Counted from the first letter of the stretch, positions 1-20,025 are shown. The stretch: 64,000 nt of DNA from an uncultured Thermoanaerobaculia bacterium (GCA_964440565.1 CAYTTB010000004.1:33260-97259); one strand, 5' to 3'. Notes: a model not told the origin generated them from the sequence alone. Program-made: numbers and translations.

Positions 1-1058
1 GGACCCTGTCGGCATACGCCGAGCGGGTGATGGGCGGCAACTACCTCGACTTCGACATCGACCGTGAGGCGGCGGCCCGGTACGGGCTCACCGTGGGCGA
101 CGTCCAGGACGTGATCATGTCGGCCATCGGCGGCATGAACGTGTCGTGGACCGTGGAGGGGCTGGAGCGGTACCCGATCAACGTCCGCTACCCGCGGGAG
201 CTCCGGGACAACCTGCAGGCGCTGGCCGACACGCTGATCCCCACGCCCACGGGGGCCCAGATCCCGATCTCGCAGGTGGCCACCATCCGGATCCACCAGG
301 GTCCGCCCTCCATCAAGTCCGAGAACGCGCGGCCCAACGCCTGGGTGTACGTGGACCTCCGTGACATCGACGTGGGCACCTGGGTGGAGCGGGCCAAGAA
401 GGAGGTGGCCAAGCGGGTGAAGCTGCCGCCGGGCTACACCATCTTCTGGTCCGGGCAGTACGAGTACATGCAGCGCGCGAAGCAGCGCCTGATGATCATC
501 GTGCCCATCACGCTGTTCCTGGTCTTCCTGATCCTCTACATCAACACGAGGTCGCTCACCAAGACCGCCATCGTGCTCCTCGCGATCCCGTTCTCGGCGG
601 TGGGCGCCGTGTGGCTGCTGTACCTGCTCGGCTACAACTGGTCCATCGCGGTCTGGGTCGGTCTCATCGCGCTCGCCGGGCTCGACGCGGAGACCGGCGT
701 GGTGATGCTTCTCTACCTCGACATCGCCTACGAGACATGGAAGCGAAAGGGCCGGATGGCCACCTATGCCGATCTCGTCGAGGCGGTGGACCACGGGGCC
801 GTCCAGCGCATCCGGCCGAAGATGATGACCGTCGCCGCGATCCTGTTCTCGCTGGTCCCGATCCTGTGGGCCACCGGTACCGGCGCCGACGTGATGCGCC
901 GGATCGCGGCCCCGATGGTGGGAGGTGTGGTCACCTCCTTCTTCGGCGAGCTGATCGTCTACCCGTCCATCTACTTCATCTGGCGCTCGCTGGGGCTCGA
1001 GAAGGGACCGCTGTTCCCCTCGGGCGGCCAGGACGCACCCGAACCCGAGGCAGCGTGA
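1..1058 (+). CDS. cusA: CusA/CzcA-family heavy-metal efflux RND permease, C-terminal fragment (gene begins upstream of window)
   Basis: ORF 27..1058 runs open to the window edge. The translation (YLDFDIDREAAARYGLTVGDVQDVI...RPKMMTVAAILFSLVPILWATGTGADVMRRIAAPMVGGVVTSFFGELIVYPSIYFIW) is typical of the C-terminal periplasmic/TM part of CusA/CzcA RND pumps. Confidence 0.9.
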   Translation, partial: TLSAYAERVMGGNYLDFDIDREAAARYGLTVGDVQDVIMSAIGGMNVSWTVEGLERYPINVRYPRELRDNLQALADTLIPTPTGAQIPISQVATIRIHQGPPSIKSENARPNAWVYVDLRDIDVGTWVERAKKEVAKRVKLPPGYTIFWSGQYEYMQRAKQRLMIIVPITLFLVFLILYINTRSLTKTAIVLLAIPFSAVGAVWLLYLLGYNWSIAVWVGLIALAGLDAETGVVMLLYLDIAYETWKRKGRMATYADLVEAVDHGAVQRIRPKMMTVAAILFSLVPILWATGTGADVMRRIAAPMVGGVVTSFFGELIVYPSIYFIWRSLGLEKGPLFPSGGQDAPEPEAA

Positions 1059-1068
1059 AGGAGGTACC

Positions 1069-1413
1069 ATGAAGCTGCTCAAGGCGTTCATCCGCACCAC
1101 CAAGGTGGACGACGTGGTCCGGGCGCTCCGGGAGGCCGGGGCTCCGGGGATCACGGTGTCGCGCGTCCACGGCGTGGGCTACGGCTACGAGCCGATGCTG
1201 TTCCACCTCGCTCCGAGCGAGATCCGCACGGCTCCCGAGGTCGCCAAGGTCGAGGTCGTCTGCGACGACCAGTGCGTGGACGTCCTGCTCACGGCACTGC
1301 TCCAGGCCGCCCACACCGGGTACGCCGGCGACGGAATCGTCTTCGTCACGCCGGTGGAGCGGGCCATCAAGATCCGAACCGGGGACGAGGCTCCCCAGGC
1401 ACTTCGGAAATGA
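1069..1413 (+). CDS. P-II (GlnB-like) family small signal protein, metal-efflux associated
   Basis: 114 aa, MKLLKAFIR...GITVSRVHGVG...GDGIVFVTPVERAIKIRTGD matches the P-II fold pattern. GAAGGAGG RBS lies 4-11 nt upstream. The gene is 10 nt after the cusA stop. Confidence 0.75.
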   Translation: MKLLKAFIRTTKVDDVVRALREAGAPGITVSRVHGVGYGYEPMLFHLAPSEIRTAPEVAKVEVVCDDQCVDVLLTALLQAAHTGYAGDGIVFVTPVERAIKIRTGDEAPQALRK

Positions 1414-4856: not shown

Positions 4857-5414
4857 ATGAGAGCACGAGGGATTCGCACGATCGGATGGACCGTGGCACT
4901 GATGGGCCTGCTCGCCACACCCGTGGCGATGGCCCAGCACCAGCACGGCGACACGGCCAAGGCGGCCGCGGAAACGACGGCGAAGAAGGGGTGCCCGGGC
5001 CACGCCGCGAAGGCCGGCGAGGAGGGCGACACGGCCATGGGCTGCAAGGCCATGATGGCCAAGAAGAAGGAGATGATGGCCAAGCTGAAGGCCATGGACG
5101 CCACCCTCGAGCAGCTGGTGCAGCGCATGAAGAGCGCCACCGGCAACGACAAGATCGCTGCCATGGAGGCGGTGCTCGAGGAGCTCGTGGCCCAGCGCAC
5201 CACCATGCGCCAGATGATGATGCAGATGCAGAAGGGCATGATGCAGCACATGATGCAGCACATGAAGAAGATGAAGATGATGAAGATGGGGATGGAGGGC
5301 GCCGAGGAGGGCTCCAGGGGCTGCCCGATGATGCAGAAGAAGAAGCACCAGGAGAGCTCCGAGCAGGCCCCGGAGGGGTCGGACGGCGGCTCCCACTCGA
5401 TGATGCAGCACTGA
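4857..5414 (+). CDS. secreted Met/His-rich protein, putative Cu(I)-binding
   Basis: GGGAGG RBS. Signal peptide ending PVAMA-QHQHGD. Long Met/His/Lys stretch MRQMMMQMQKGMMQHMMQHMKKMKMMKMGMEG. Lies directly upstream of the copper ATPase. Confidence 0.7.
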   Translation: MRARGIRTIGWTVALMGLLATPVAMAQHQHGDTAKAAAETTAKKGCPGHAAKAGEEGDTAMGCKAMMAKKKEMMAKLKAMDATLEQLVQRMKSATGNDKIAAMEAVLEELVAQRTTMRQMMMQMQKGMMQHMMQHMKKMKMMKMGMEGAEEGSRGCPMMQKKKHQESSEQAPEGSDGGSHSMMQH

Positions 5415-5739: not shown

Positions 5740-8277
5740 ATGCACGAGCACGATCATGACGGGGGAACCGGCGAGGCGTCCGGGACGGGTCCGGTGAAGG
5801 ACCCGGTCTGCGGGATGACGGTGGATCCGGCGAGTGCCGAGCACCGGCTCGAGCACGCCGGGGTGGAATACGTCTTCTGCTCCGCGCGGTGCCGGGACCG
5901 GTTCGCGGCCGAGCCCGAGCGGTGGGCCGGAGCGGCCGGAGGAGGGCACGACGCCCACGACCGCGTCGGTCGGGACGCTCACGATCACGCAGGGGCCGGA
6001 GCGCACACGTGCTGCCGCACCGCGCCCCCCCCGCCGGCCCCTCCAGCCGGAGCGGGTACCGAGTACACCTGCCCCATGCACCCGGAGGTCCGCGAGCCCG
6101 AGCCGGGCAGCTGCCCGAAGTGCGGCATGGCGCTCGAGCCGGTCCGGCCGGTGGTCTCAGCCGAGAAGGTCGAGTACACCTGCCCCATGCATCCCGAGAT
6201 CGTCCAGGACGAGCCCGGGAGCTGCCCCATCTGCGGGATGGCCCTCGAGCCGCGGACGGTGAGCGCCGAGGACGAGGAGAGCGCCGAGCTCAAGGACATG
6301 CAACGGAGGTTCTGGGTGAGCGCGATCCTCACCCTCCCCGTGTTCGTCATGGCCATGGCCGAGTACATCCCCGGCGTGAGCTTCGGGATCCCGCGCCACA
6401 CCGTGACCCTCATCGAGCTGATCCTGGCCACCCCGGTGGTGCTCTGGGGCGGGTGGCCGTTCTTCGTCCGCGGCTGGCAGTCGGTGGTGAACCGGTCGCT
6501 CAACATGTTCACGCTGATCGGGCTCGGCGTGGGCGTGGCCTACGTGTACAGCGTCGTGGCCGCGCTGCTTCCCGGCATCTTCCCGGACTCGTTCCGAGAC
6601 GCCGAGGGGAACGTGGCGGTCTACTTCGAGGCCGCGGCGGTGATCGTCACGCTGGTGCTGCTCGGCCAGGTGCTGGAGCTCAGGGCGCGCAGCCAGACCG
6701 GCGCGGCCATCCGGGCCCTGCTCGGGCTCGCGCCCAAGACCGCCCGGCGGATCAACGAGGACGGCAGCGAGGAGGACGTCCCCCTGGACCAGGTGAAGGT
6801 CGGTGACCGTCTCCGCGTCCGTCCGGGCGAGAAGATCCCGGTGGACGGCACCGTGCTCGAGGGGACGAGCTCGGTGGACGAGTCCATGATCACGGGCGAG
6901 CCCATCCCGGTGTCGAAGAAGCCGGGAGACCGGGTGATCGGGGCGACCCTCAACCGTACCGGCGCGCTGGTCATCCGCGCCGAGAAGGTGGGGGCCGACA
7001 CCCTGCTCTCGCAGATCGTGCAGATGGTCGCCGAGGCGCAGCGCTCGCGCGCCCCGATCCAGAAGCTCGCGGACGTGGTGGCCGGGTACTTCGTACCCGC
7101 CGTCGTCGGGATCGCGGTCCTCACCTTCGTGGTGTGGGCGCTGTGGGGGCCGGAGCCGAGGATGGCCCACGCGCTGATCAACGCCGTTGCCGTCCTCATC
7201 ATCGCGTGTCCGTGCGCCCTCGGCCTCGCCACGCCGATGTCCATCATGGTGGCCACCGGCAAGGGAGCCACCGTGGGCGTGCTGTTCAAGAACGCCGAGG
7301 CCATCGAGGTCATGCGCAAGGTGGACACGCTGGTGGTGGACAAGACGGGCACCCTCACCGAAGGCAGGCCCAGCCTCCAGGCGGTCCGCGCCGTGGGGGA
7401 GATGAACGAGAACGAGCTGCTCCGTCTCGTGGCCAGCCTCGAGAGGAGTAGCGAGCACCCCCTGGCGGAGGCCATCGTGGCCGGCGCCACGGAGCGCGGC
7501 CTCGAGCTCGAGGAACCGGAGTCGTTCGACTCCATCACCGGCAAGGGCGTGGTGGGCCGCGTGGCGGGTCACGAGGTCGCCGTGGGCAACACCGCCCTCA
7601 TGGAGCAGGTGGGCGCCGACACCGCCCCGCTGGCGGATGCCGCCGAGGCGATGCGCCGCGAGGGTCAGACGGCGATGCTCGTGGCGATCGACGGCAGGGC
7701 GGCCGGCCTGGTGGCGGTGGCCGACCCGATCAAGGCCTCCACCCCGGAGGCGATCGAGGCCCTGCACCGCGAGAAGATGCGGGTGGTGATGCTCACCGGC
7801 GACAGCCGCACCACCGCCGAGGCGGTGGCCCGGAAGCTGGGCATCGACGACGTCATCGCCGAGGTGCTCCCCGACCAGAAGGCCGAGGTGGTGAAGCGGC
7901 TCCAGGCCGAGGGCCGGATCGTGGCGATGGCGGGTGACGGGATCAACGACGCCCCGGCGCTCGCGCAGGCCCACGTGGGGATCGCCATGGGCACGGGCAC
8001 CGACATCGCCATGGAGTCGGCCGGGGTCACCCTCGTCAAGGGAGACCTGCGCGGCATCGTCCGCGCGAGACGCCTCTCCCGCGCCACCATGCGCAACATC
8101 AAGCAGAACCTGTTCTGGGCCTTCGCCTACAACTCGCTGGGCGTGCCCCTCGCCGCGGGCGTTCTCTACCCGTTCTTCGGGTTACTGCTCAGCCCCATCA
8201 TCGCCGCGGCCGCGATGAGCTTCAGCTCCGTGTCCGTGGTGGCCAACGCACTGCGCCTCAAGCGCGTGCGGATCTGA
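5740..8277 (+). CDS. copA: copper-translocating P1B-type ATPase with N-terminal YHS/TRASH domain and two CPMHPE-type metal-binding modules
   Basis: 845 aa. Carries [10 protein letters not shown]...YVFCSARC (YHS/TRASH), 2x YTCPMHPE...GSCP.CGMALE, the TM CPC motif [13 protein letters not shown], the DKTGTLT phosphorylation site and the [10 protein letters not shown] hinge. Confidence 0.95.
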
Positions 8278-8290
8278 GGGGAGACCACCC

Positions 8291-8494
8291 ATGGCCATGT
8301 CGATCGACCCCGTGTGCGCGATGGCGGTGGAGCCCGAGGCCGGGTTCTCGGTCCGGTACCGCGGCGTGGAGTACCGGTTCTGCTCCACGATGTGCCGCGA
8401 GGCCTTCACCGAGCGGCCGGGACGTTACCTGAAGGGGGGCGAGATCCTCCGCGGCTCCGGGGACGACCCCGTGGTGGAGGTGCTCGATGAATGA
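8291..8494 (+). CDS. YHS-domain protein
   Basis: 67 aa, DPVCAMAVEPEAGFSVRYRGVEYRFCSTMCREAF. Starts 14 nt after the copA stop. Confidence 0.8.
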   Translation: MAMSIDPVCAMAVEPEAGFSVRYRGVEYRFCSTMCREAFTERPGRYLKGGEILRGSGDDPVVEVLDE

Positions 8495-9557
8495 GACCCT
8501 CTCCACCCTGACCGCCCTGCCCAACCTCCACCCGGCCGTGGTGCACTTCCCCATCGCGCTGGCCGTGGTGGCGGCGGCCGCGGCCGTGGCCACCCTGGTC
8601 ACGCCCCGCCGCTGGCTGGACCGTACCGCCGCGGCCCTCGCGGGCCTGGCCGCGGCGGGCGCGTGGGCCGCCTGGCTCGCCGGTCGCGCCGCCGCCGACT
8701 CCGTGGGCCAGCTCGCGCCCGCGGCCGAGGCGACACTGGCCGATCACGCCGACCTCGCCCTGTGGGCCGCTGTCGCGCTCACCGCGGCGGCCGCAGGCTG
8801 GACACTGGCGGCGTGGCGCGACCGCACCTCCGCACGTCCCCGACGGGGGATCCTCCGGCTCGCCTCCGTGGCGCTGACCGTGCTCGCGGCGGGCCTGGTC
8901 GCCCGCACCGCGGATCTCGGCGGGGCGCTGGTCTACCGTCACGGCGTGGCCGTCGCGGCGCCCACACCGGCACCGACGCCCTCGCCCGCGCCGGACCCGG
9001 CGCGACGCCTCGAGCGACGAGACGACGGCACCCTCCGGTGGCGCCCCGCGCCCGGCGACGGCGCCGCGCTGGGCGCGGCGGTGCGCGTGCTCGGGCCTCC
9101 GGGGACGATCCGCGCCGTGGAGGGCGAGGGCCCCGGCCTCACGCTCGCGGTGGACGGCGCCGCGGCGCTCTGTCTCCCCGGCGAGGCCGCGGGAGGCGTC
9201 GTCGAGGCCCTGGTCGAGCCGCTCGCGTTCCGGGGACGTCTCGGTCCGGCGATGCGGCTCGCGGGCCCGGCCACGGCGGTCGCGTTCGAGCTCGGCCCGG
9301 AGGGGGAGGCCGCCCTCGTGCGGCTTTCGGGCAGCGAGAGGAAGGTCTGGGACACAGCACGCGTGCGCCCCAGGGGTGAGCCCGTGCGCCTCGCCCTCTC
9401 GGTCGCCGGTCGTCACCTGAAGGGGTTCGTGGACGGGCAGATGGCGGTGCACGGGCACGGTGACCCTGGCCCCCCGGGGTGCGCGGGCCTCGTGCTCGAG
9501 GGGACCGGGACGGTCCGGCTGCTGGAGCTCGTGCTGCGGCCGGGCTCGGCCCACTGA
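8487..9557 (+). CDS. DUF2231-like membrane protein with C-terminal extracytoplasmic jelly-roll-like (DUF1080/LamG-like) region
   Basis: N-terminus LHPAVVHFPIALAVVAAA plus further TMs and ...LGGALVYRHGVAV (DUF2231 pattern). Pro-rich linker, then a beta-rich C-terminus ending LVLEGTGTVRLLELVLRP. Overlaps the YHS gene by 8 nt. Confidence 0.5.
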   Translation: MNETLSTLTALPNLHPAVVHFPIALAVVAAAAAVATLVTPRRWLDRTAAALAGLAAAGAWAAWLAGRAAADSVGQLAPAAEATLADHADLALWAAVALTAAAAGWTLAAWRDRTSARPRRGILRLASVALTVLAAGLVARTADLGGALVYRHGVAVAAPTPAPTPSPAPDPARRLERRDDGTLRWRPAPGDGAALGAAVRVLGPPGTIRAVEGEGPGLTLAVDGAAALCLPGEAAGGVVEALVEPLAFRGRLGPAMRLAGPATAVAFELGPEGEAALVRLSGSERKVWDTARVRPRGEPVRLALSVAGRHLKGFVDGQMAVHGHGDPGPPGCAGLVLEGTGTVRLLELVLRPGSAH

Positions 9558-9588
9558 CCCGGCGCCGGGCCGGGAAGGGAGCGTGGAC

Positions 9589-10248
9589 ATGAAGCGTGTG
9601 CGGCATCGAACCCGCGGCAGACGCGCGGCGAGACGGTCCGGGATCGAGCCCGGATGGCTCGTGCTGGGCGCGATCCTCGTCGTCGGCCTCGGTGCGATGG
9701 TCGCGGTCGTCCGCGACCGGGCACGGACGGCGACGCCGTCCTCCGCTCCGATCCGGGCATCCGTGGTCGCGGCGGAGCTCGCGGATCCGCGGGTCGCCGA
9801 GGTGGAGCGCCGGTTCCTGTGCCCCTGCGGCCGCTGCGGGAACATGCAGCTTCCGGAGTGCAGCTGCGACGTTCCCGGCGGCGCCCTGGAGGTCAGGGGC
9901 GTGATCGCCGACCTCCTGGCCCGGGGGCTGACGGTGGAGGAGACGGTGGCCGCTGTCGCCCGACGGTACGGATCGCTCGCACCGGATCCGGAGGGAACCG
10001 AGGCACCGTCCAGTGCGAGCCCGGAGCCCGTCGCCGCTCACGCCGTCCCGGAGCTCCAGGTCGCGGCCGTGGCCTCCCGGCTGCGCTGCTTCTGCGGCCG
10101 CTGCTCGCACCGCCTGGACACGTGCGACTGCTCGCACCCCTCGGGCGCCCGCACCGTCAAGGCGTTCATCCGCGCGCGCCTGGCCGCGGGCGACGCCCCG
10201 GAGGTCGTGGCCACGGCGGTCGAACGCGAGTTCGGAGGATCCGCGTGA
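9589..10248 (+). CDS. membrane-anchored protein with two tandem Cys-rich CcmH/NrfF-like modules
   Basis: ATG at 9589 inside ORF 9460..10248. One TM (WLVLGAILVVGLGAMVAVV). Two repeats: FLCPCGRCGNMQLPECSCD...VRGVIADLLARGLTVEETVAAVARRYG and LRCFCGRCSHRLDTCDCSH...VKAFIRARLAAGDAPEVVATAVEREFG. Confidence 0.55.
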   Translation: MKRVRHRTRGRRAARRSGIEPGWLVLGAILVVGLGAMVAVVRDRARTATPSSAPIRASVVAAELADPRVAEVERRFLCPCGRCGNMQLPECSCDVPGGALEVRGVIADLLARGLTVEETVAAVARRYGSLAPDPEGTEAPSSASPEPVAAHAVPELQVAAVASRLRCFCGRCSHRLDTCDCSHPSGARTVKAFIRARLAAGDAPEVVATAVEREFGGSA

Positions 10249-10337: not shown

Positions 10338-10811
10338 TCACGGCCGATGGGCGACCCGGGCCGCGAGCCACACGGCGAGCGGCGGGATCACGAGCCACTG
10401 CACGAGCGGCACCACACCGATGTACGTACCGGGCACGACCGGCATGAGTCGGGAGTACGCCCAGCTCTGCCGGATCGCCACGTTGAGCTGCTCGCTGGCC
10501 GCGGTGTAGGCCACGCCGAGGAGCGCGGTCGCGACGAGGTGGCGCGGTTCGGGCCGGAGCAGCCAGGCGGGGCGCCGCAGCGCAAACCCCACCAGCGCGG
10601 CCGAGCCCAGCAGGATGAGGACGTCCACGAGGGTGCAGTGGAACCGATACCAGACCACCGTGTTCAGCGAGACGCCGCCGTCGTCGTAGAACGGCGTCTG
10701 CAGCCACTCCCAGTCCCCGTGGAGGAGGAAGCCGAAGAACGCCAGCCACACCCAGGCGGCCAGGGCTTCCCGCCCCGGGGGCGACCACCGGCGTCCAACG
10801 GACGTCGTCAT
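10338..10811 (-). CDS. hypothetical integral membrane protein
   Basis: C-terminal 157 aa of ORF 10338..11468 starting MTTSVGRRW (CAT at 10809-10811). Four hydrophobic segments. The upstream part of the ORF is Pro/Ala/Ser-rich and overlaps the opposite-strand gene. Confidence 0.45.
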   Translation of the reverse strand: MTTSVGRRWSPPGREALAAWVWLAFFGFLLHGDWEWLQTPFYDDGGVSLNTVVWYRFHCTLVDVLILLGSAALVGFALRRPAWLLRPEPRHLVATALLGVAYTAASEQLNVAIRQSWAYSRLMPVVPGTYIGVVPLVQWLVIPPLAVWLAARVAHRP

Positions 10812-10956
10812 CTGCGAAGGATACCAGCGAACGAAGCGCCATGGCCCCACCCCGGGGAGAGCGCGGCGAGGCCGCCGTGCCCATGGCGAGACGTCAACCG
10901 GCACCTTCCCCGGATCGGGGGATGTGCATGGGAACTCACCCCAGAGGAGGGGAACC

Positions 10957-11694
10957 GTGCGAACACAGATGACCGCTCTGAGATTCACGATGACGCTCGT
11001 CGTCGCCGCGGCGGCGGCGCTGTGGGCCCCGCTCGCAGCGTCCGCGCACGGCGGCGGATCCGCCACGATGGGCGGTACCGGGATGCTCGTCGTCGCCGAC
11101 GACGGCACGCTCCTGGTCACCCGGATGGGCATGTCCGGGATGATGGACGGCGGCGCGGCGACCGTGAGCCGCGACCTCGTGGCCATCGCCCCGGACGGGA
11201 CCGAGCGGTGGCGCGCGTCGTTCAGCGAGGGATGGCCCACGATGCCCGTCACCGACGGCGACCTCGTGGTGGTGGTGCTCGTGGACGACTGGTTCATGGG
11301 AAGCGGCGGCACGGGCGACGGCGGCTGGGGTGGCATGGGCGGGGGCCCGATGGGGATCGCCGCCCGCGACACCGCCGGGGCGGACGGCACGATCACGGTG
11401 GTGGGGCTCGACCTCGCCACCGGAGCGGAGCGGTGGCGCACGACGCTCGACGGCGACATGGGCGCCATGGCGCAGTTCTCGCCCGACGGCTCCAGGCTCT
11501 ACCTGTCCCTGCGCGAGATGGGCCAGATGGGCGGCATGGGCGGTGGCCCGATGCGGCAGGGCGACGCCGCCGGCTCCGGGACGGTGATGACCACGACCGT
11601 CGTGGCCCTCGACCGCGACGGCAACGTCCTCTGGACGTACCGGCTGGACGGAGGCACCGGTGGGATGGGCGGCATGACCGCCGGGAGGCGATGA
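10957..11694 (+). CDS. secreted PQQ-like beta-propeller repeat protein with Met/Gly-rich loops (paralog 1)
   Basis: GTG at 10957, 6 nt after GAGGAGG. Signal peptide ...LWAPLAASAHG. Repeats of the type VVGLDLATGAERWRTTL and VVALDRDGNVLWTYRL. Loops GMSGMMDGG, GWGGMGGGPMG, MGQMGGMGGGPM. Confidence 0.65.
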   Translation: MRTQMTALRFTMTLVVAAAAALWAPLAASAHGGGSATMGGTGMLVVADDGTLLVTRMGMSGMMDGGAATVSRDLVAIAPDGTERWRASFSEGWPTMPVTDGDLVVVVLVDDWFMGSGGTGDGGWGGMGGGPMGIAARDTAGADGTITVVGLDLATGAERWRTTLDGDMGAMAQFSPDGSRLYLSLREMGQMGGMGGGPMRQGDAAGSGTVMTTTVVALDRDGNVLWTYRLDGGTGGMGGMTAGRR

Positions 11695-12473
11695 CCATGC
11701 GCCGGATCGCATTCGTCCTCGCGGCGACGCTGGCCGTGATCGTCCCGGCCGCGGCGGGCGCGGCGCCCGGCCACCTCGAGGGATACGTCCCCGCGGCCGC
11801 CCACGCGCCCGGGAGGTTCGGTTCGTTCTGGACCACCGACCTGTGGATCTACCAGCAGGGCGCCAGCGTCGTCCATCTCTGGTTCAACCGTACGGGGAAC
11901 GACAACTCCGACGTCGAGAGCGTGGTGGTCCCACTCGATGCGCCTGTGGTCCACATCCAGGACGTGGTGGCGACGCTGTTCGGCACCGAGGGCCTCGGCA
12001 GCATCCACTACCTGGCCGACGGGCCCGTGGTCGTGGTGAGCCGTACCTGGACGCCGGCCCCTGGCGGAGGAAGCTACGGGCAGACGATCCCCGGGATCCC
12101 CCTCGCCCAGGCCTCGCTCGCGGGCACCGGCCAGGCGGGGGCGCTGCGCATGCTGGTGGACCAGCGTTCCGGGTTCCGCGCGAACCTCGGTCTCGTGAAC
12201 GTGTCACCGGTCCCGGTGACGGTGACGGTGGAGATCTTCACCTCCGACGGCGCTCCCGCACCGGGGTCGAGCTCCTTCACGGTGGACCTCGCGCCCTTCG
12301 ACATGAAGCAGGTGGGCGACGTCCTCTCGGGGCTCGAGCCCGGACAGCGGGAGGGACTCATCGTCCGGGCCGGGGTGACCTCGGCCGAGGGCGCCATCCT
12401 GGCCTACCTCTCCACCGTGGACAACACGACCAACGACGCCTCGTACCAGGAGGCGTTCCGTTTCGGGTTCTGA
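11691..12473 (+). CDS. secreted hypothetical protein (beta-rich, unknown family)
   Basis: Last 260 aa of the artefactual long ORF 9654..12473. ATGA overlap with the upstream gene. Signal peptide MTMRRIAFVLAATLAVIVPAAAGAA. Mature part FGSFWTTDLWIYQQG... Confidence 0.6.
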   Translation: MTMRRIAFVLAATLAVIVPAAAGAAPGHLEGYVPAAAHAPGRFGSFWTTDLWIYQQGASVVHLWFNRTGNDNSDVESVVVPLDAPVVHIQDVVATLFGTEGLGSIHYLADGPVVVVSRTWTPAPGGGSYGQTIPGIPLAQASLAGTGQAGALRMLVDQRSGFRANLGLVNVSPVPVTVTVEIFTSDGAPAPGSSSFTVDLAPFDMKQVGDVLSGLEPGQREGLIVRAGVTSAEGAILAYLSTVDNTTNDASYQEAFRFGF

Positions 12474-12527
12474 CGACCGTGCCGCGGCGCGCGGTGCGGT
12501 GCCGTGCGCCGCACGAAGGAGGGAGAC

Positions 12528-12929
12528 ATGGAGTACGCCATCGTGAAGGAGCTTCCCGGGATCGGGTACGACGACGCCGTGGGGAGGGTCCGCGAGGCGC
12601 TGGCGGAGGAGGGGTTCGGCGTCCTCACCGAGATCGACGTGAAGGAGACCCTGAAGAAGAAGCTCGGGATCGATACCCGGAACTACGTCATCCTCGGCGC
12701 CTGCAACCCGCCGCTCGCGCACCGGGCACTCGAGGGAGAGCCTCTCATCGGCGTTCTCCTGCCCTGCAACGTGGTGGTCATGGAGCGCGAGGGGGGCGGC
12801 TCCACCGTGGCCGCCTTCAAGCCCACCGCCGGCTTCTCGCTGGTGGACAACCCCGAGGTGGCACCCATCGCCCGCGAGGTGGAGGAGAGGATCGAACGGG
12901 TCCTCGGCAGGCTCGCCGAGGACGCGTGA
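12528..12929 (+). CDS. DUF302-domain protein
   Basis: ATG at 12528 after GAAGGAGGGA. MEYAIVKELPGIGYDDAVGRVREALAEEGFGVLTEIDVKETLKKKLG...YVILGACNPPLAHRAL is the typical DUF302 pattern. Confidence 0.8.
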   Translation: MEYAIVKELPGIGYDDAVGRVREALAEEGFGVLTEIDVKETLKKKLGIDTRNYVILGACNPPLAHRALEGEPLIGVLLPCNVVVMEREGGGSTVAAFKPTAGFSLVDNPEVAPIAREVEERIERVLGRLAEDA

Positions 12930-12945
12930 GGGCGAGGGGACGGCG

Positions 12946-14049
12946 GTGCCGCGGCGAACCGTCTCGCCGCGAACGGGGGGCTTCCACGGGAGAGCGCACG
13001 CCGCGCGCGCGGCGCGCCACGCCGCTGCCGGCGCCCTCTTCGGGTACCTCGTGCTCCACCCCGTGGCGATGGGGATCTTCCGCGTCCTCGACGGTCCGAG
13101 CGTACCCGGCAGCCCGGGCGAGACGTTCCTCCGGGCCCTGGGCGAGGCGTTCCATCCTCACATGCTGCCGATGGGCCTTCTCTTCGCCCTGTTCTGCTCC
13201 GCCATCGGAGCGGCCGACGGCTGGCTCCGCGGCCTCGTACTGGAGCAACGGGCGCAGCTCGCGCGGCTCGTCCGGCAGCTGGAACGCGAGCGCCACCAGC
13301 TGGTCCGCCTTCACGAAATGCATCGCCGTTCCACCCGATTTCTCGTCCACGACCTCAAGACGCACATCGGCTGCATCCTCGGCTTCGCGGAGCTGCTGGG
13401 CACCTCGCCAGCGATCGCCGGAGACCGCGAATGCGCCGACGCCGTGGCGCGGATCACGCGCCAGGCCAAGAAGCTGATGGACGGGGTCACCGACCTCCTC
13501 GAGCTCGCCAGGATGCAGGAGGGGCACCGACCGGCCCGGGAGCAGGTGCCCGTCGCTCGCCTCCTCGACGAGGTCCGCGAGGCGTTCCTCCTGCCTCTCC
13601 ACGAGGGACGCCTGCGGATCGAGGCCCCGGACCGGGAGGCCGCACCGCTCCTGGTCGCCGGCGACCGCAAGCTCCTGCTCCGGGTACTCTGCAACCTCGT
13701 GTCGAACGCCCTCTCGCACGCGCCGGAGGGTACAAGGGTGAAGCTGACCGTCCGCCTCGACCCGGACGACCCGGAGTGGCTCGAGTTCTCGTGCAGCGAC
13801 CGCGGCCCCGGCGTCCCCCCGGAGGCGCTGCCCCACATCTTCGACGAGTTCCGCTCGGGCAGGGGCTCTTCCGGTCTCGGCCTCGCCTTCTGCAAGGCAG
13901 CGGTGGAAGCCCACGGCGGGACCATCCAGTGCCAGAGTTCCCCCGGCGAGGGGTGCACGTTCACGGTGCGGCTGCCCCGTACCGTACCGAAGAAGGAGGC
14001 TCCACATGAGCGACACACCGAGGCCACACACGATCCTCGTCGTCGATGA
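12946..14049 (+). CDS. sensor histidine kinase (HisKA + HATPase_c)
   Basis: H-box FLVHDLKTHIGCILGFAELL, N-box LLRVLCNLVSNALSHAP, G-boxes DRGPGVP and GSSGLGLAFCK. Confidence 0.85.
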   Translation: MPRRTVSPRTGGFHGRAHAARAARHAAAGALFGYLVLHPVAMGIFRVLDGPSVPGSPGETFLRALGEAFHPHMLPMGLLFALFCSAIGAADGWLRGLVLEQRAQLARLVRQLERERHQLVRLHEMHRRSTRFLVHDLKTHIGCILGFAELLGTSPAIAGDRECADAVARITRQAKKLMDGVTDLLELARMQEGHRPAREQVPVARLLDEVREAFLLPLHEGRLRIEAPDREAAPLLVAGDRKLLLRVLCNLVSNALSHAPEGTRVKLTVRLDPDDPEWLEFSCSDRGPGVPPEALPHIFDEFRSGRGSSGLGLAFCKAAVEAHGGTIQCQSSPGEGCTFTVRLPRTVPKKEAPHERHTEATHDPRRR

Positions 14050-14422
14050 CGATCCAGACCACGTGGCGCTCGTGGCCGGCATCCTGCGCCGACACGGTTA
14101 CGCGGTGCTCACCGCCGACCGTGCCGACGAGGCGCTCCGCCTGGCCACCGAGCGAGCGCCGGACGCGGCGGTGCTCGACGTGATGATGGACCATCTCGGC
14201 GAGGGATTCGACCTGGCCCGCTCGCTTCGCCAGCAGCACCCGGGGAGCGACCTCCCCGTCGTGTTCCTGACCGGTATGGACGCGGTGTTCGACCTTCGAT
14301 CCGAGATCGGCGAGGACTGGATTCCCGGCGACCGGGTGCTCACCAAGCCCGTCAGCGCCGGGGCGCTGCTCGGTGCCCTCGCCGAGCTACTGCGCGATGC
14401 GACGACGGGAGGGAACCCATGA
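14006..14422 (+). CDS. single-domain response regulator (REC only)
   Basis: AAGGAGG RBS. ILVVDDDPDHV...AAVLDVMMD...VVFLTG...TKP receiver motifs. Confidence 0.85.
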   Translation: MSDTPRPHTILVVDDDPDHVALVAGILRRHGYAVLTADRADEALRLATERAPDAAVLDVMMDHLGEGFDLARSLRQQHPGSDLPVVFLTGMDAVFDLRSEIGEDWIPGDRVLTKPVSAGALLGALAELLRDATTGGNP

Positions 14423-14832
14423 GCCCCACGGCCCGAAAGGCACTCGTCATCGAGGACGACGCCGACTTCGCGGCCTACCTGGCCGCTGTCCTGCGGCGTG
14501 ACGGGATCGAGCCGGTCGTGGCGAGAACCCTCGAAGAGGCGAGGCGCGCCCTCCTGAGCTCCCGATTCGACCTGGTAACGCTCGATCTGGACCTCGGCGG
14601 GGCCTCCGGCGGGGAGCTGCTCCTCGAGCTCCGCGCGGACCCCGAGCTGGCCCGGATCCCCGTGATCGTCGTCTCGGGGGTGCCGGTGGAGGACCCGAAG
14701 GTCCGGGCGCTGGTCGAGGCGTTCGCCGACCGTCCCTCCCTCGCGCTCCCCGACGCCTGCGTCGAGAAGCCCGCACCCCCGGAACGCCTCCGCCGGGCGG
14801 TGGCGCTGGCGACGGGTCGCGCCGCCGTGTGA
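14419..14832 (+). CDS. single-domain response regulator (REC only)
   Basis: ATGA overlap with the previous gene. ALVIEDDADFA...DLVTLDLDLGG...PVIVVSG...EKP. Confidence 0.85.
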   Translation: MSPTARKALVIEDDADFAAYLAAVLRRDGIEPVVARTLEEARRALLSSRFDLVTLDLDLGGASGGELLLELRADPELARIPVIVVSGVPVEDPKVRALVEAFADRPSLALPDACVEKPAPPERLRRAVALATGRAAV

Positions 14833-14854
14833 GGAGCCCGCCCTCGCCTCACGG

Positions 14855-14886
14855 CCGTCCCTCGTGAAGGCGTTCACGAGGGACGG
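14855..14886 (+). terminator. perfect 14-bp stem-loop (CCGTCCCTCGTGAA-GGCG-TTCACGAGGGACGG) 23 nt after the stop
   Basis: Arms verified as exact reverse complements. No T-tract. Confidence 0.5.
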
Positions 14887-15017
14887 TGCCGTTCGGACCC
14901 CGTCAGTCATCGTATCGTCGCGACTCCGGGCCAGTCGGGTGTCTCGATCGCCCTCCTCCGTGCACTAGCTCGTGACGGCAGGCACATCCCTGCCGATCTC
15001 GACGACGGGAGGTCGCG

Positions 15018-15743
15018 ATGGGAGCGAAGACTCGACGGTTCCTGGTGCTGGCCGCGGCGATGACGCTCGCCGCCCCCGCGCTCACGCTCGCCCACGGCGG
15101 AGCGATGGGCTTCGGGATGTCGGGGGGCATGGGCATGGGGATCCCGGTGGTGGCCGACGACGGCACCGTCCTGGTGATCGAGGGCGGGGCCATGGGCTGG
15201 AGCTGGTCCGATGCCGGATCCGCCCTGGTGGCTCTCGACCCCTCCGGAAGCGAACGATGGCGGATCGCCCTCGACGGTGTGTCCCCCATGACGGTCGTTA
15301 CCGAGGGCGATCTCGTGGTGGTGGCCACCCTCGATCACGACGGGATGATGGGGAACGGCGATTCCGGGGGCGGAGACGGTCACATGGGCGGCGGAGGCAG
15401 CGGCCACGGAGGCATGGGCGGCCACGGCATGAGCGTGAGCCCGCAGGACGTACCCTCCCGGGGCGGCGCCGCCCTGGTGGCCATCGACCTGGCCACCGGC
15501 GTGGAGCGGTGGCGGTTCGAGGCCGACGGCGCGATGGTGACGGCCCGGCTCGCACCCGGGGCCTCCATCGTGTACGCCGTGGTCCACGCGTCGGGGCACG
15601 GCATGGGCCTCGGGGGCTCACCCATGGGCCAGGGCGACGCCGAGGGTGACAGCTCCACCACGCTCTACGCGCTCGACGCCGCCTCCGGCGCCGTTCTCTG
15701 GAGCCGTGACCTCGCCCCCGGCGGCGGCGGGATGATGTGGTGA
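15018..15743 (+). CDS. secreted PQQ-like beta-propeller repeat protein with Met/Gly/His-rich loops (paralog 2)
   Basis: GGGAGG RBS. Signal peptide ...APALTLAHG. Same blade pattern as 10957..11694 (LVAIDLATGVERWRFEA, LYALDAASGAVLWSRDL). Loops GFGMSGGMGMG, GHMGGGGSGHGGMGGHGMS, GHGMGLGGSPMG. Confidence 0.65.
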   Translation: MGAKTRRFLVLAAAMTLAAPALTLAHGGAMGFGMSGGMGMGIPVVADDGTVLVIEGGAMGWSWSDAGSALVALDPSGSERWRIALDGVSPMTVVTEGDLVVVATLDHDGMMGNGDSGGGDGHMGGGGSGHGGMGGHGMSVSPQDVPSRGGAALVAIDLATGVERWRFEADGAMVTARLAPGASIVYAVVHASGHGMGLGGSPMGQGDAEGDSSTTLYALDAASGAVLWSRDLAPGGGGMMW

Positions 15744-16328: not shown

Positions 16329-17225
16329 TCATCCGGGCCGGCGGGCCCCACGCACGGTGACCACCGGGATCCTGGCCTCCCGCACGACCCGCTCGGCCAC
16401 CGAGCCCAGCACCGCCTCCTCGAGCGCGGAGAGCCCCCGGTGGCCGACCACCAGCAGATCGAACCGCCCCGGCTCCGCCGCCCCGGCGACGGCGGTGGCG
16501 GCCCGGCCCGAGACCACCATCGTCTCGTGCGGGACGTCCGCCAGGTGGCGGCGGGCGAGGTCGGCCAGCGCCTCGCTGGATCGCGCCTCGATCCGGTCCG
16601 CGAGGTCCTCGGGGAAGATGTCCACCGCGTAGAACTCCGGGTAGACCACCGGCTCGACCGCGTGCAGCACGGTCACCGACCCCGCCACCCGCCGGGCCCA
16701 GGCGGCCGCCCAGGCGAGCGCCTCGTCGGCGGTCTCCGAGAAGTCGGTGGCGACCAGCAGGCGCCGCGGCACGCCCTCCACCGGCGCGTCGCCGCGGACG
16801 GCGACCACCGGTACGCGCGCCGCGTGCACCACCCGCTCCGCCACCGAGCCCAGGAGCAGGCGCCGCAGGCCGCGGTGGCCGTGGGTGCCCATCACCACGA
16901 GGTCGCAGCCGTGGGTGTCCACCGCCTCGAGCACCGCCTCGTCCACCGTCAGACCGCGCACCACGTGGGTGCGCACCGGCACGTCGGCAGCGGCGCCGAG
17001 CCCTTCGAGGGTCCGGTGGACCTCGCGGTCCGTGGCCTCGAGCAGCTCCTCCAGCCGCCGCCGGTGCACCTCGTCGAGGTGCGGATCGGCCAGGAGCATC
17101 CGGACGTGGAGCAGGTGCACCTCGCCGTCGGCCGCCGCCGCCATCGCGGCCGCCAGCCGCACCGCGCGCTCGGCGGGCGGCGAGAAGTCCGTGGGGACCA
17201 GGATGGAACGTGGCAGCTGCGCCAT
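16329..17225 (-). CDS. universal stress protein, tandem Usp domains
   Basis: 298 aa. Two repeats of ILVPTDFS...LLHV...DLVVMGTHG..G....LGSVAERVV..A..PVV.VR. Confidence 0.85.
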   Translation of the reverse strand: MAQLPRSILVPTDFSPPAERAVRLAAAMAAAADGEVHLLHVRMLLADPHLDEVHRRRLEELLEATDREVHRTLEGLGAAADVPVRTHVVRGLTVDEAVLEAVDTHGCDLVVMGTHGHRGLRRLLLGSVAERVVHAARVPVVAVRGDAPVEGVPRRLLVATDFSETADEALAWAAAWARRVAGSVTVLHAVEPVVYPEFYAVDIFPEDLADRIEARSSEALADLARRHLADVPHETMVVSGRAATAVAGAAEPGRFDLLVVGHRGLSALEEAVLGSVAERVVREARIPVVTVRGARRPG

Positions 17226-17377: not shown

Positions 17378-19413
<2,036 letters not shown>

Positions 19414-19414
<1 letters not shown>

Positions 19415-20025
19415 CACTCCAACCTCCTCCTCGAGTTCTCCGACGCCTCGCCTCCCCGTTCCGGCGCCATGTTGAACCGCGACATGGCGGCGTCCAGCCC
19501 CTCGTAGATCGCGGCGAGGACGGCCTCCACCGCGCGCTCCACCATCCGCTCCACGGTCTCCCGCTCCTCCTCGGAGAACGGCGACAGCACGTACTCGGCG
19601 AGATCACCCGTGGGGCGCTCGCCGCGCACCCCCAGGCGCAGCCTCGGGAACCCCTCCCCCACCGCCGCGACGACGTCGCGCAGCCCGTTGTGGGTTCCCG
19701 GGCCGCCCCGCCGCCTGAGGCGCAACCGCCCCAGCGGCAGGTCCACGTCGTCCACCACCACCAGGACCGACCCGGGGGCGATCCCGAGCTCGGCGCAGAG
19801 CGCGCGGATGGCCGCACCCGACCTGTTCATGTACGTCTGCGGCTTGGCCAGGACCACGGCCGGCCCCCGGCGGGCACGGCTCACCAGGCTGAGGGCACGG
19901 CGCTCCCATGTCCCGCCCCGCAGCCGACGGTGCAGGGTGTCCACCACCCGGAACCCGACGTTGTGACGGGTGCCCTCGTACTCGTCGCCGGGATTGCCCA
20001 GCCCCACCACCGCCTCGATGCCCAT
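19414..20025 (-). CDS. pth: peptidyl-tRNA hydrolase
   Basis: [20 protein letters not shown]...MNRSG...HNGLRD. Confidence 0.95.

What the first reader, a model, noticed from the sequence alone, without database searches (positions are those of the whole stretch)
10957..15743. Two paralogous secreted mini beta-propellers whose loops are replaced by Met/Gly/His-rich tracts
Seen in sequence:
- 10957..11694 and 15018..15743 share length (about 240 aa), a signal peptide ending AHGG, and four PQQ-like blade signatures (e.g. LDLATGAERWRTTL vs IDLATGVERWRFEA; ALDRDGNVLWTYRL vs ALDAASGAVLWSRDL).
- Between blades they carry tracts such as GWGGMGGGPMG, MGQMGGMGGGPM and GHMGGGGSGHGGMGGHGMS.
- They bracket a DUF302 gene, a sensor kinase and two receiver proteins.

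Established knowledge: Met- and His-rich loops are Cu(I)/Ag(I) binding elements in periplasmic copper proteins (CueO, PcoA/CopA oxidases, CusF/CopC-type proteins).

Inference: these are periplasmic copper-binding or copper-buffering scaffolds of a type I do not recognise as characterised.
Basis: partly seen in the sequence, partly recalled or inferred. Interest (0 to 1): 0.6.

Follow-up and report, generated by a model that had tools for sequence, protein, structure and literature searches.

The report
Methionine-rich three-blade periplasmic copper-island proteins
Two secreted, methionine- and glycine-rich proteins built from only three propeller blades sit in a copper/silver export gene cluster, and they probably bind copper or silver in the periplasm, though no binding has been measured.

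Summary
10957..11694 (A) and 15018..15743 (B) encode paralogous secreted proteins: 42% identity, E 1e-23, and both score above the Pfam PQQ_2 cut-off.

Each has three four-stranded blades, not four. The Met/Gly(/His) tracts are the strand B-to-C loop inside each blade plus both tails.

Met is 7-9% of the mature proteins against 1.9% in other window proteins. Eleven Met columns are at least 80% conserved across 44 homologs.

The window is a Cu(I)/Ag(I) export island holding a CusA-like pump end, a CopA-type ATPase and another Met-rich secreted protein.

In 28 of 28 testable related loci, mostly Acidobacteriota MAGs, the A-type gene is followed directly by a conserved 258-aa secreted partner (here 11697..12473). 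In 19 of 22 loci with enough upstream DNA it lies behind a CusA-like pump or a CopA-like ATPase. No CusF homolog was detected.

Best reading (about 0.6): a periplasmic Cu(I)/Ag(I) binder, either buffer or chaperone, on a new incomplete-propeller scaffold that probably needs oligomerisation. Metal binding and assembly are untested.

All homologs are unannotated or labelled 'BamB', and no paper was found. This is a new variant of a known kind.

The parts
10957..11694 (+). Paralog A (A-type): a 245-aa secreted Met/Gly-rich three-blade PQQ_2-like protein
   Evidence: ORF and translation. PQQ_2 scores 34.4 bits against a 27.6 cut-off. The AF2 model shows 12 strands in three blades. An RBS precedes GTG 10957. 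Public gene calls give the same 245-aa product.
11047..11082 (+). A: mature N-terminal Gly/Met tail, HGGGSATMGGTG
   Evidence: Sequence. pLDDT is below 50. His follows the predicted cleavage site in 52% of homologs.
11083..11223 (+). A: blade 1, with B-C loop MGMSGMMDGGAAT at 11125..11163
   Evidence: DSSP strands 40-42, 48-56, 65-73 and 79-84. The loop MM columns are 91% and 98% Met.
11230..11448 (+). A: blade 2. Strand A starts at GWPTMP (family consensus GWPMMP). The 35-aa B-C loop DDWFMGSGGTGDGGWGGMGGGPMG... lies at 11284..11388
   Evidence: DSSP strands 94-96, 99-105, 141-148 and 154-161; loop pLDDT is below 50. The two Met columns of WPMMP are 98% and 93% Met, and GD in the loop is invariant.
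11452..11646 (+). A: blade 3. Strand A starts at GDM. The B-C loop MGQMGGMGGGPMRQGDAAGSGTV lies at 11518..11586
   Evidence: DSSP strands 164-170, 177-184, 207-214 and 220-225. The Met of GDM is 98% conserved, the Met of PMxQGD is 84% conserved, and the Q is invariant.
11647..11691 (+). A: C-terminal Gly/Met tail, DGGTGGMGGMTAGRR
   Evidence: Sequence. pLDDT is below 50.
11697..12473 (+). Obligate partner gene: a 258-aa secreted all-beta protein that is not Met-rich. An alternative ATG at 11691 overlaps the stop codon of A as ATGA
   Evidence: It lies directly downstream of the A-type gene in 28 of 28 loci at 58-81% identity. More than 305 homologs were found, all unnamed. The AF2 model has pLDDT 75, and its PDB fold matches are mainly beta-sandwich proteins at low TM-score (about 0.2).
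12504..12929 (+). DUF302 protein, with no signal peptide (public gene call 12528..12929)
   Evidence: Pfam DUF302 E 7e-24. A homolog follows the partner gene within about 1.2 kb (0.86-1.19 kb) in 7 related loci, and lies 5-9 kb away in 2 more.
12946..14049 (+). Histidine kinase with two TM segments and no periplasmic domain. The short outer loop carries HPHMLPMG
   Evidence: HisKA plus HATPase_c. It is 58% identical to the L006 kinase, which keeps PHMLPMG.
14006..14422 (+). Stand-alone receiver protein 1
   Evidence: Response_reg E 3e-18. It is conserved in L006.
14419..14832 (+). Stand-alone receiver protein 2
   Evidence: Response_reg E 8e-13.
15018..15743 (+). Paralog B (B-type): a 241-aa protein with the same three-blade plan. 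Its loops also carry His (GHMGGGGSGHGGMGGHGMS at 15333..15467; SGHGMGLGGSPMGQGD at 15591..15656)
   Evidence: PQQ_2 scores 37.7 bits. It is 42% identical to A. It clusters with P0002 of L006 as a separate clade. L006 has the same position after the kinase and receiver genes.
27..1058 (+). C-terminal 343 aa of a CusA/CzcA-type RND pump, cut by the window start
   Evidence: ACR_tran E 7e-66. It is 72-87% identical to pumps next to the family in 14 loci and 59% in a fifteenth, L029. The full-length relatives in L001 and L002 score above the TIGR00914 cut-off and keep the CusA residues M573, M623 and M672.
4857..5414 (+). Secreted 185-aa helical-looking protein with 15.8% Met (MMQMQKGMMQHMMQHMKKMKMMKM)
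   Evidence: Translation. Composition. No Pfam hit. Homologs hold the same position in L011 and L030.
5740..8277 (+). CopA-type Cu(I) P1B-1 ATPase with a YHS domain and two HMBD domains
   Evidence: Pfam. TIGR01511 scores 619 bits against 397. CPC, YN and MSFSS motifs are visible in the sequence.
8487..9557 (+). DUF2231 membrane protein
   Evidence: Pfam E 5e-15. It is conserved upstream of the module in L009, L010 and L011.
9586..10248 (+). Membrane-anchored CcmH-like protein with two CxCGRCx(6-7)CxC motifs
   Evidence: CcmH E 3e-7. It is conserved in L009, L010 and L034.
10338..10832 (-). Conserved membrane protein of about 164 aa, divergently oriented from A
   Evidence: No Pfam or NCBIfam hit. 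It is 66-67% identical and at the same position in L010 and L034.

Best explanation
A and B belong to a small, uncharacterised family of secreted proteins. Each member is three PQQ/BamB-type blades carrying thioether-rich loops.

**Proposed mechanism**
- The rigid blades present many flexible Met (and, in B, His) side chains on one face, which bind Cu(I)/Ag(I) in the periplasm.
- The protein either buffers the ion, like SilE or PcoE, or passes it between the CopA-type ATPase and the CusCBA-type pump, the role CusF plays in E. coli.
- It acts together with the co-translated 258-aa beta-rich partner.
- Three blades cannot close a propeller, so the working form is probably a homo-oligomer (dimer = 6 blades, trimer = 9 blades) or a complex with the partner.
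- B, placed after a kinase that lacks a periplasmic domain, may be a divergent copy tied to that signalling unit.

**Shown:** paralogy, PQQ_2 homology, the three-blade secondary structure, conserved Met positions, and synteny with Cu/Ag export genes.

**Inferred:** periplasmic location (from the signal peptide), the one-face arrangement (from canonical propeller topology), metal binding, oligomerisation, and chaperone versus sponge.
For: **Composition**
- Met is 5.5-12.6% and Gly 17-28% of the mature protein in 44 homologs, with essentially no Cys. Other window proteins have 1.9% Met.
- Eleven alignment columns are at least 80% Met. Among the three commonest residues listed per column, aliphatic substitutes appear in only two of them, which argues for a ligand role rather than a hydrophobic-core role.
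- Trp lies next to conserved Met in the motifs GWPMMP, DWFMG and GDGGW.

**Topology**
- The strand order is A-B-[Met loop]-C-D, three times.
- By the standard propeller convention, the B-C loops, the starts of the A strands (GMM, WPMM, GDM) and both tails all emerge on the same 'top' face. The Met-free DDG/TDG/PDG and PDGT/ATGA/RDGN turns are on the other face.

**Context**
- The A-type gene is followed by the partner in 28 of 28 loci.
- It is preceded by a CusA-like pump or CopA-like ATPase in 19 of 22 loci that have at least 2.5 kb upstream.
- Stop and start codons overlap with cusA in L001, and with the partner gene in L001, L005, L009 and the window.
- The two full-length pumps examined (L001, L002) keep the CusA Met triad. 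The ATPase in the window is of the Cu(I) type.
- No CusF homolog was found by tblastn, by my Pfam scans of small ORFs in L001, L002, L006 and L009, or in the precomputed Pfam tables of the loci.

**Precedents**
- SilE is a Met/His 'molecular sponge' (PMC5008109).
- AztD is a periplasmic beta-propeller metallochaperone (PMC6689063).
- Two- and three-blade fragments of designed propellers self-assemble (bioRxiv 10.1101/2021.04.12.439409). The best PDB sequence matches of the family are such PQQ-derived designs, the Cake and Scone proteins.
Against: - There is no direct evidence of metal binding or of induction by copper.
- The Met loops are modelled with low confidence (pLDDT below 50 to about 65), so their arrangement is not known.
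- I could not inspect model coordinates. The one-face argument therefore rests on canonical topology only.
- A-type proteins have almost no His or Cys.
- Three of 22 loci show no metal genes upstream. L014 and L021 have housekeeping neighbours and L009 has only 2.6 kb of upstream sequence.
- The role of the better-conserved partner, which is not Met-rich, is unexplained.
- The local kinase and receiver genes are not of the CusRS/CopRS type and occur in only two genomes.
Confidence: 0.6

Rival explanations
1. The protein is a protein-protein scaffold or assembly accessory, BamB-like in role, for the efflux machinery or for the 258-aa partner. Under this reading the Met/Gly tracts are flexible linkers that do not bind metal.
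For: - It is homologous to PQQ_2/BamB-type blades.
- It is translationally coupled to cusA and to the partner gene.
- The partner is more conserved than the propeller protein.
- The loops have low pLDDT.
Against: - Near-invariant Met at defined positions is not expected of linkers.
- The module follows either copA or cusA, or stands alone, so it is not tied to one machine.
- The BamB equivalog scores 22-23 bits against a 285 cut-off, and there is no lipobox.
Confidence: 0.15
2. The protein is a periplasmic co-sensor. It reports periplasmic Cu/Ag to the kinase at 12946..14049, which has no periplasmic domain. This applies to B in particular.
For: - The layout A, partner, DUF302, kinase, receiver, B is conserved in L006.
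- The kinase has only a short outer loop.
- B forms its own clade, found only next to such kinases.
Against: - Only 2 of 29 loci have a kinase nearby, so this cannot be the general function of the family.
- It is compatible with, rather than opposed to, metal binding.
Confidence: 0.1
3. The protein is a sacrificial methionine-rich antioxidant. It scavenges oxidants, such as HOCl or copper-driven reactive oxygen species, in the periplasm.
For: It has a high content of surface-exposed Met. A universal stress protein gene lies next to B.
Against: - No methionine sulfoxide reductase genes (msrP/msrQ) turned up among the neighbouring genes I scanned or in the precomputed Pfam annotations of the related loci.
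- The specific linkage to CusA and CopA is not explained by this reading.
Confidence: 0.07
4. The propeller protein and its partner form an enzyme acting on a copper-related substrate, for example a cuprous oxidase or another redox activity.
For: Propeller top faces often carry catalytic sites; the fold matches include PQQ dehydrogenases, tetrathionate hydrolase and CylK. The partner has invariant His, Asp and Tyr residues.
Against: - PQQ-enzyme models score far below their cut-offs: 12 against 480 bits.
- No conserved catalytic or copper-centre His cluster is present in A.
- Only three blades are present.
Confidence: 0.05

Closest known systems
CusF (E. coli periplasmic Cu(I)/Ag(I) chaperone of CusCFBA)
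   Same: It is a small secreted protein encoded with a CusA-type pump. It binds metal through Met, with a neighbouring Trp. It links CopA to CusB. In the loci here, the new family occupies an equivalent operon position and CusF is not detected.
   Different: CusF is a roughly 90-residue OB-fold protein (110-aa precursor) with one Met2His site. This family has three PQQ-like blades, 16-25 Met, almost no His in the A-type, no sequence similarity, and an obligate partner gene.
SilE / PcoE periplasmic 'molecular sponges'
   Same: They are Met-rich, have multiple sites, and have segments that are disordered in the apo form. They are encoded in Cu/Ag resistance islands (PMC5008109).
   Different: SilE and PcoE are fully disordered, become helical on binding, and use HxxM/MxxH motifs. 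Here the Met/Gly loops are grafted on a folded beta scaffold and are mostly free of His.
Met-rich inserts of periplasmic multicopper oxidases (CueO, PcoA/CopA) and the Met loops of CopC/PcoC and CopK
   Same: They share the Gly/Met/His-rich composition of tracts such as GHMGGGGSGHGGMGGHGMS. Their Cu(I)-recruiting function is established knowledge, recalled from memory and not tested here.
   Different: No cupredoxin domain and no copper-centre His motifs are present. The Pfam scan finds only PQQ_2.
BamB / PQQ_2 eight-bladed beta-propellers
   Same: The blade repeat is homologous: PQQ_2 scores above its cut-off, and PDB profile hits include 3HXJ and BamB.
   Different: This family has three blades instead of eight, no lipoprotein Cys, and a BamB model score of 22-23 bits against 285. 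The B-C loops are expanded into Met/Gly tracts.
AztD, periplasmic beta-propeller zinc metallochaperone
   Same: It is a precedent for a periplasmic propeller protein that binds metal and hands it to a transport system (PMC6689063).
   Different: AztD is a complete eight-bladed propeller with His/Asp zinc sites and serves import. No homology to AztD was tested or claimed here.
Designed propeller fragments (Pizza 2- and 3-blade fragments; Cake and Scone proteins derived from PQQ-like 3HXJ)
   Same: Short blade arrays assemble into closed propellers by oligomerisation (bioRxiv 10.1101/2021.04.12.439409). They are the top PDB sequence matches to the family profile.
   Different: They are artificial, not Met-rich, and have no metal-export context.

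Membership tests
Pfam PQQ_2 (PF13360) repeat superfamily | Whole-protein score at or above the gathering cut-off of 27.6 bits | tested here: met
   A scores 34.4 bits and B scores 37.7 bits.
Pfam PQQ_2 (PF13360) repeat superfamily | A complete closed propeller, typically eight blades, in one chain | tested here: not met
   The AF2 model has 12 strands in three blades. The match covers only 63 of 233 profile positions. Foldseek matches to 7-8-bladed propellers are partial, with a query TM-score of about 0.44.
BamB (TIGR03300 equivalog) | Score at or above 285 bits | tested here: not met
   22.6 and 23.4 bits.
BamB (TIGR03300 equivalog) | Lipoprotein signal peptide with a lipobox Cys | tested here: not met
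   A and B contain no Cys. The predicted cleavage sites are ASA|H and TLA|H.
PQQ-dependent dehydrogenases (TIGR03075; Pfam PQQ PF01011) | Family model score above its cut-off | tested here: not met
   12.4 bits against 480, and 14.6 bits against 26.7.
CusF | Sequence similarity to CusF or the CusF_Ec Pfam family | tested here: not met
   A Pfam scan at E up to 1 lists only PQQ_2 and weak unrelated hits (DUF4136 for A, PQQ PF01011 for B). tblastn of E. coli CusF against all loci gives nothing significant.
Periplasmic Met-rich Cu(I)/Ag(I)-binding proteins (functional class) | Export signal | tested here: met
   Across the family the N-terminus has a basic region, a hydrophobic region and an AxA-type site. 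This is a rule-based reading; no SignalP run was possible.
Periplasmic Met-rich Cu(I)/Ag(I)-binding proteins (functional class) | Conserved clustered Met (and His) ligands | tested here: met
   Met is 5.5-12.6% of the mature protein, and 11 columns are at least 80% Met. Enrichment P is 5e-8 for A and 6e-6 for B.
Periplasmic Met-rich Cu(I)/Ag(I)-binding proteins (functional class) | Genetic linkage to Cu/Ag export genes | tested here: met
   19 of 22 loci have a CusA-like pump or CopA-like ATPase upstream. The window itself carries both gene types.
Periplasmic Met-rich Cu(I)/Ag(I)-binding proteins (functional class) | Measured Cu(I)/Ag(I) binding | not testable with these tools
   This needs recombinant protein and ITC, ICP-MS or EXAFS.
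Oligomeric propellers built from blade fragments | Self-association into a closed ring | not testable with these tools
   Only monomer prediction was available and model coordinates could not be read. This needs AlphaFold-Multimer, SEC-MALS or a crystal structure.

The most novel reading that the evidence does not exclude
The family may be a natural three-blade propeller fragment that self-assembles, as a dimer or trimer and possibly with its 258-aa partner, into a closed ring. The top face of that ring would be a methionine-lined cup holding several Cu(I)/Ag(I) ions. Under this reading it replaces CusF as the periplasmic link between CopA and CusCBA in Acidobacteriota. That would make it both a new metallochaperone/sponge fold and a natural example of propeller assembly from sub-ring fragments.
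Probability: 0.3. Interest if true: 0.75.

Novelty: new variant of a known kind. Interest (0 to 1): 0.6.

Why it matters
- Copper and silver handling in the periplasm is understood mainly from Proteobacteria (CusF, SilE, PcoE, CopC, CueO). This would be a structurally unrelated solution used by a large, mostly uncultured phylum.
- It comes as a conserved two-gene module whose second member has no known fold relatives of known function.
- It offers a natural case of a sub-ring propeller fragment, relevant to how propellers evolved from single blades and to protein design.
- It also flags that the automatic 'BamB' labels on these genes are wrong.

Tried and rejected
**Readings tested and rejected**
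- Frame artefact or low-complexity noise: rejected. GC3 is 0.89-0.93 and Met positions are conserved across 44 homologs.
- BamB or PQQ-enzyme identity: rejected on model scores.
- Four blades: rejected.
- Recent in-genome duplication: rejected. B groups with P0002 of another organism, outside all A-type sequences.
- CusF-like protein hidden in the loci: not found.
- Partner as an outer-membrane barrel (it ends ...FRFGF): not supported. Foldseek gives mostly sandwich-type beta-protein matches at very low TM-score (about 0.2), and no outer-membrane barrel appears among the top 50 hits. A PDB profile search found nothing.

**Searches that returned nothing**
- Plasmid collection: no homolog of A.
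- Literature searches for a Met-rich propeller in copper resistance: nothing. DUF302-plus-copper papers give only co-occurrence remarks.

**Limits of the tools**
- Model coordinates could not be read, so ring closure and the Met face could not be checked directly.

Full report
**1. Observation**

The two ORFs are real. 10957..11694 (A, 245 aa) and 15018..15743 (B, 241 aa) have GC3 of 0.93 and 0.89 in a 74% GC window. A GAGGAGG ribosome-binding site precedes GTG 10957, and public gene calls give the same products.

They are paralogs: 42% identity over 206 aa, E 1e-23. Both exceed the Pfam PQQ_2 gathering score, at 34.4 and 37.7 bits against 27.6.

Met makes up 19 of 215 (A) and 16 of 216 (B) mature residues. 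Twenty-seven other window proteins average 1.92% Met, giving binomial P of 5e-8 and 6e-6. This enrichment runs against the genome's GC pressure.

**2. Anatomy**

An AlphaFold2 model of A, built from a 22-sequence alignment, has mean pLDDT 73 with 98 residues at 90 or above. It contains 12 strands.

The strands form three repeats of the same unit:
- strand A (MLVVA / TMPVT / AMAQFS)
- a tight turn (DDG / DGD / PDGS)
- strand B
- a Met/Gly loop
- strand C (LVAIA / TVVGLD / TVVALD)
- a turn
- strand D (ERWRASF / ERWRTTL / VLWTYRL)

So there are three blades, not four. The Met/Gly tracts are the B-C loops of each blade plus the N- and C-terminal tails. These regions have low pLDDT, from below 50 to about 65.

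Foldseek matches the model only partially to 7-8-bladed propellers, with a query TM-score of about 0.44. The hits include CylK, tetrathionate hydrolase, hydrazine synthase and PQQ dehydrogenases. The best PDB sequence matches of the family profile are PQQ-derived designer propellers (Cake, Scone), their natural template 3HXJ, and then BamB.

Natural propellers have 4-12 blades (PMC8458387). A three-blade chain therefore cannot close alone. Two- and three-blade fragments of designed propellers do self-assemble (bioRxiv 10.1101/2021.04.12.439409). Oligomerisation here is an inference, not a result.

By the canonical propeller topology, the B-C loops, the D-to-A connections, the starts of the A strands and both termini of an unpermuted blade array all lie on the same face. 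That is where all the Met-rich elements sit. The opposite-face turns contain no Met. I could not read model coordinates, so this too is inference.

**3. Family**

A word-indexed search found about 20 homologs of 225-253 aa. An exhaustive HMM search of 1.84 billion representatives found 29 clusters with E at or below 1e-30, mostly about 190-250 aa or shorter fragments plus one 1,456-aa multi-blade protein. Beyond those came ordinary long multi-blade PQQ proteins.

Genome hits are almost all Acidobacteriota MAGs (Thermoanaerobaculia, Holophagae, 'Sulfomarinibacteraceae'). Two MAGs are labelled Chondromyces and Deltaproteobacteria.

Across 44 sequences:
- Met is 5.5-12.6% and Gly 17-28% of the mature protein, with Cys essentially absent.
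- Eleven columns are at least 80% Met. These include the blade-1 loop MM (91% and 98%), WPMMP (98% and 93%), GDM (98%) and PMxQGD (84%).
- Aliphatic residues appear among the three commonest residues in only two of these columns.
- The loops also contain invariant non-Met residues, GD and Q.

B and P0002 (locus L006) form a separate clade outside all A-type sequences, so the A/B split is old.

**4. Context**

The window is a copper/silver export island. In order it holds:

| Coordinates | Strand | Gene |
|---|---|---|
| 27..1058 | + | C-terminal end of a CusA/CzcA-type RND pump |
| 1069..1413 | + | P-II-like gene |
| 4857..5414 | + | secreted protein with 15.8% Met |
| 5740..8277 | + | CopA-type ATPase |
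| 8291..8494 | + | 67-aa YHS protein |
| 8487..9557 | + | DUF2231 protein |
| 9586..10248 | + | CcmH-like double-CxC protein |
| 10338..10832 | - | conserved membrane protein |
| 10957..11694 | + | A |
| 11697..12473 | + | 258-aa partner |
| 12504..12929 | + | DUF302 protein |
| 12946..14049 | + | histidine kinase |
| 14006..14422, 14419..14832 | + | two receiver proteins |
| 15018..15743 | + | B |

The ATPase scores 619 bits on TIGR01511 against a cut-off of 397. It has YHS and two HMBD domains, and CPC, YN and MSFSS motifs.

tblastn of the window proteins against 29 distinct related loci gave these results:
- The partner lies directly downstream of the A-type gene in 28 of 28 loci where that can be tested, at 58-81% identity. 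The start often overlaps the stop codon.
- A CusA-like pump (59-87% identity) or a CopA-like ATPase (67-83%) lies upstream in 19 of 22 loci with at least 2.5 kb of upstream sequence.
- DUF302 follows the partner gene within about 1.2 kb in 7 loci, and lies 5-9 kb downstream in 2 more.
- L006 repeats the whole layout: A, partner, DUF302, kinase, receiver, B.

In L001 the gene overlaps the stop codon of cusA. In L002 it follows OEP-CusB(HMBD)-CusA-x-CopA.

The linked pumps are 52% identical to E. coli CusA and keep the Met triad M573/M623/M672. They score above the TIGR00914 cut-off. No CusF homolog was found in any locus.

There are exceptions. L014 and L021 have housekeeping neighbours.

**5. 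Partner**

More than 305 homologs were found, all unnamed. Met is 0.8%.

The AF2 model has pLDDT 75 and pTM 0.53, and is all-beta. The drop in pLDDT around residues 123-147 suggests two beta-rich domains. Only weak matches appear, mainly to two-domain beta-sandwich proteins such as RbmA, PapD/FimC and FnIII pairs, at TM-score about 0.2. One domain matches TM1070. There is no PDB sequence relative.

Invariant His, Asp, Trp and Tyr residues exist. The function of the partner remains open.

**6. Mechanism**

The best reading, at confidence about 0.6, is a periplasmic Cu(I)/Ag(I)-binding protein. A rigid three-blade scaffold, probably oligomeric, displays many thioethers on one face, some next to Trp as in the CusF site.

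It would work with its partner in one of two ways. It could act as a buffer, like SilE (PMC5008109). Or it could act as a chaperone between CopA and CusCBA, the role of CusF. AztD is a propeller-fold precedent for a periplasmic metallochaperone (PMC6689063).

B carries extra His. It sits behind a kinase that has no periplasmic domain but a conserved PHMLPMG outer loop. B may therefore be a signalling-linked variant.

The rivals are a metal-independent scaffold, a co-sensor, an antioxidant Met sink, and an enzyme. They are listed with their evidence. None explains the conserved Met together with the CusA/CopA linkage as well.

**7. Known versus new**

By function the family would join a known class, the Met-rich periplasmic Cu/Ag binders. 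It fails every sequence test for CusF, BamB and PQQ enzymes. It belongs to the PQQ_2 repeat superfamily only at the blade level.

No annotation or paper describes it. I rate it a new variant of a known kind, with interest 0.6.

**8. Limits**

- Metal binding, oligomeric state and the partner's role are untested.
- Two fold libraries were unavailable.
Its nearest relatives suggest a Thermoanaerobaculia-like acidobacterium.

Noticed in passing
window 4857..5414 (+): A secreted 185-aa protein with 15.8% Met, including MMQMQKGMMQHMMQHMKKMKMMKMGME. It has no Pfam hit and lies upstream of copA. Homologs hold the same place in L011 and L030. It is a SilE/PcoE-like sponge candidate and a third Met-rich protein in the island.
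   Followed up: partly
window 11697..12473 (+): The 258-aa secreted beta-rich partner is more conserved (58-81%) than the propeller protein. It has more than 305 unnamed homologs and invariant His, Asp, Trp and Tyr residues. A 34%-identical domain also occurs inside an S8 subtilase in L021 (2500..3162).
   Followed up: partly
window 8291..8494 (+): A stand-alone 67-aa YHS-domain ORF lies between the ATPase and the DUF2231 gene. It is 48% identical to the ATPase's own N-terminal YHS domain.
   Followed up: no
window 9586..10248 (+) and 8487..9557 (+): A membrane-anchored CcmH-like protein with two CxCGRCx(6-7)CxC motifs lies next to a DUF2231 protein. The DUF2231 protein recurs upstream of the module in L009, L010 and L011, and the CcmH-like protein in L009, L010 and L034.
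   Followed up: partly
window 12946..14049 (+): The histidine kinase has two TM segments and no periplasmic domain. Its short outer loop carries (H)PHMLPMG, which is conserved in L006. The two downstream receivers have no output domain, so this is not a CusRS/CopRS-type system.
   Followed up: partly
window 10338..10832 (-): A membrane protein of about 164 aa with no family hit is 66-67% identical, and divergently placed next to the propeller gene, in L010 and L034.
   Followed up: no
window 1069..1413 (+): A P-II-like protein is encoded directly after the CusA-type pump. The same arrangement occurs in L011, L012, L030 and L034.
   Followed up: no
window 16329..17225 (-) and 17378..19417 (-): A tandem universal stress protein gene and an ORF read by eye as an H+-pyrophosphatase (not scanned) flank the island. 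Housekeeping genes (pth, L25, prs) follow, marking the island's right edge near 15.8 kb.
   Followed up: no
L002 6988..7506 and 11534..11893; L001 3577..3978: Small unannotated ORFs recur inside the related Cus/Cop loci. One gives a weak DUF3347 and LIC13259-family hit.
   Followed up: partly
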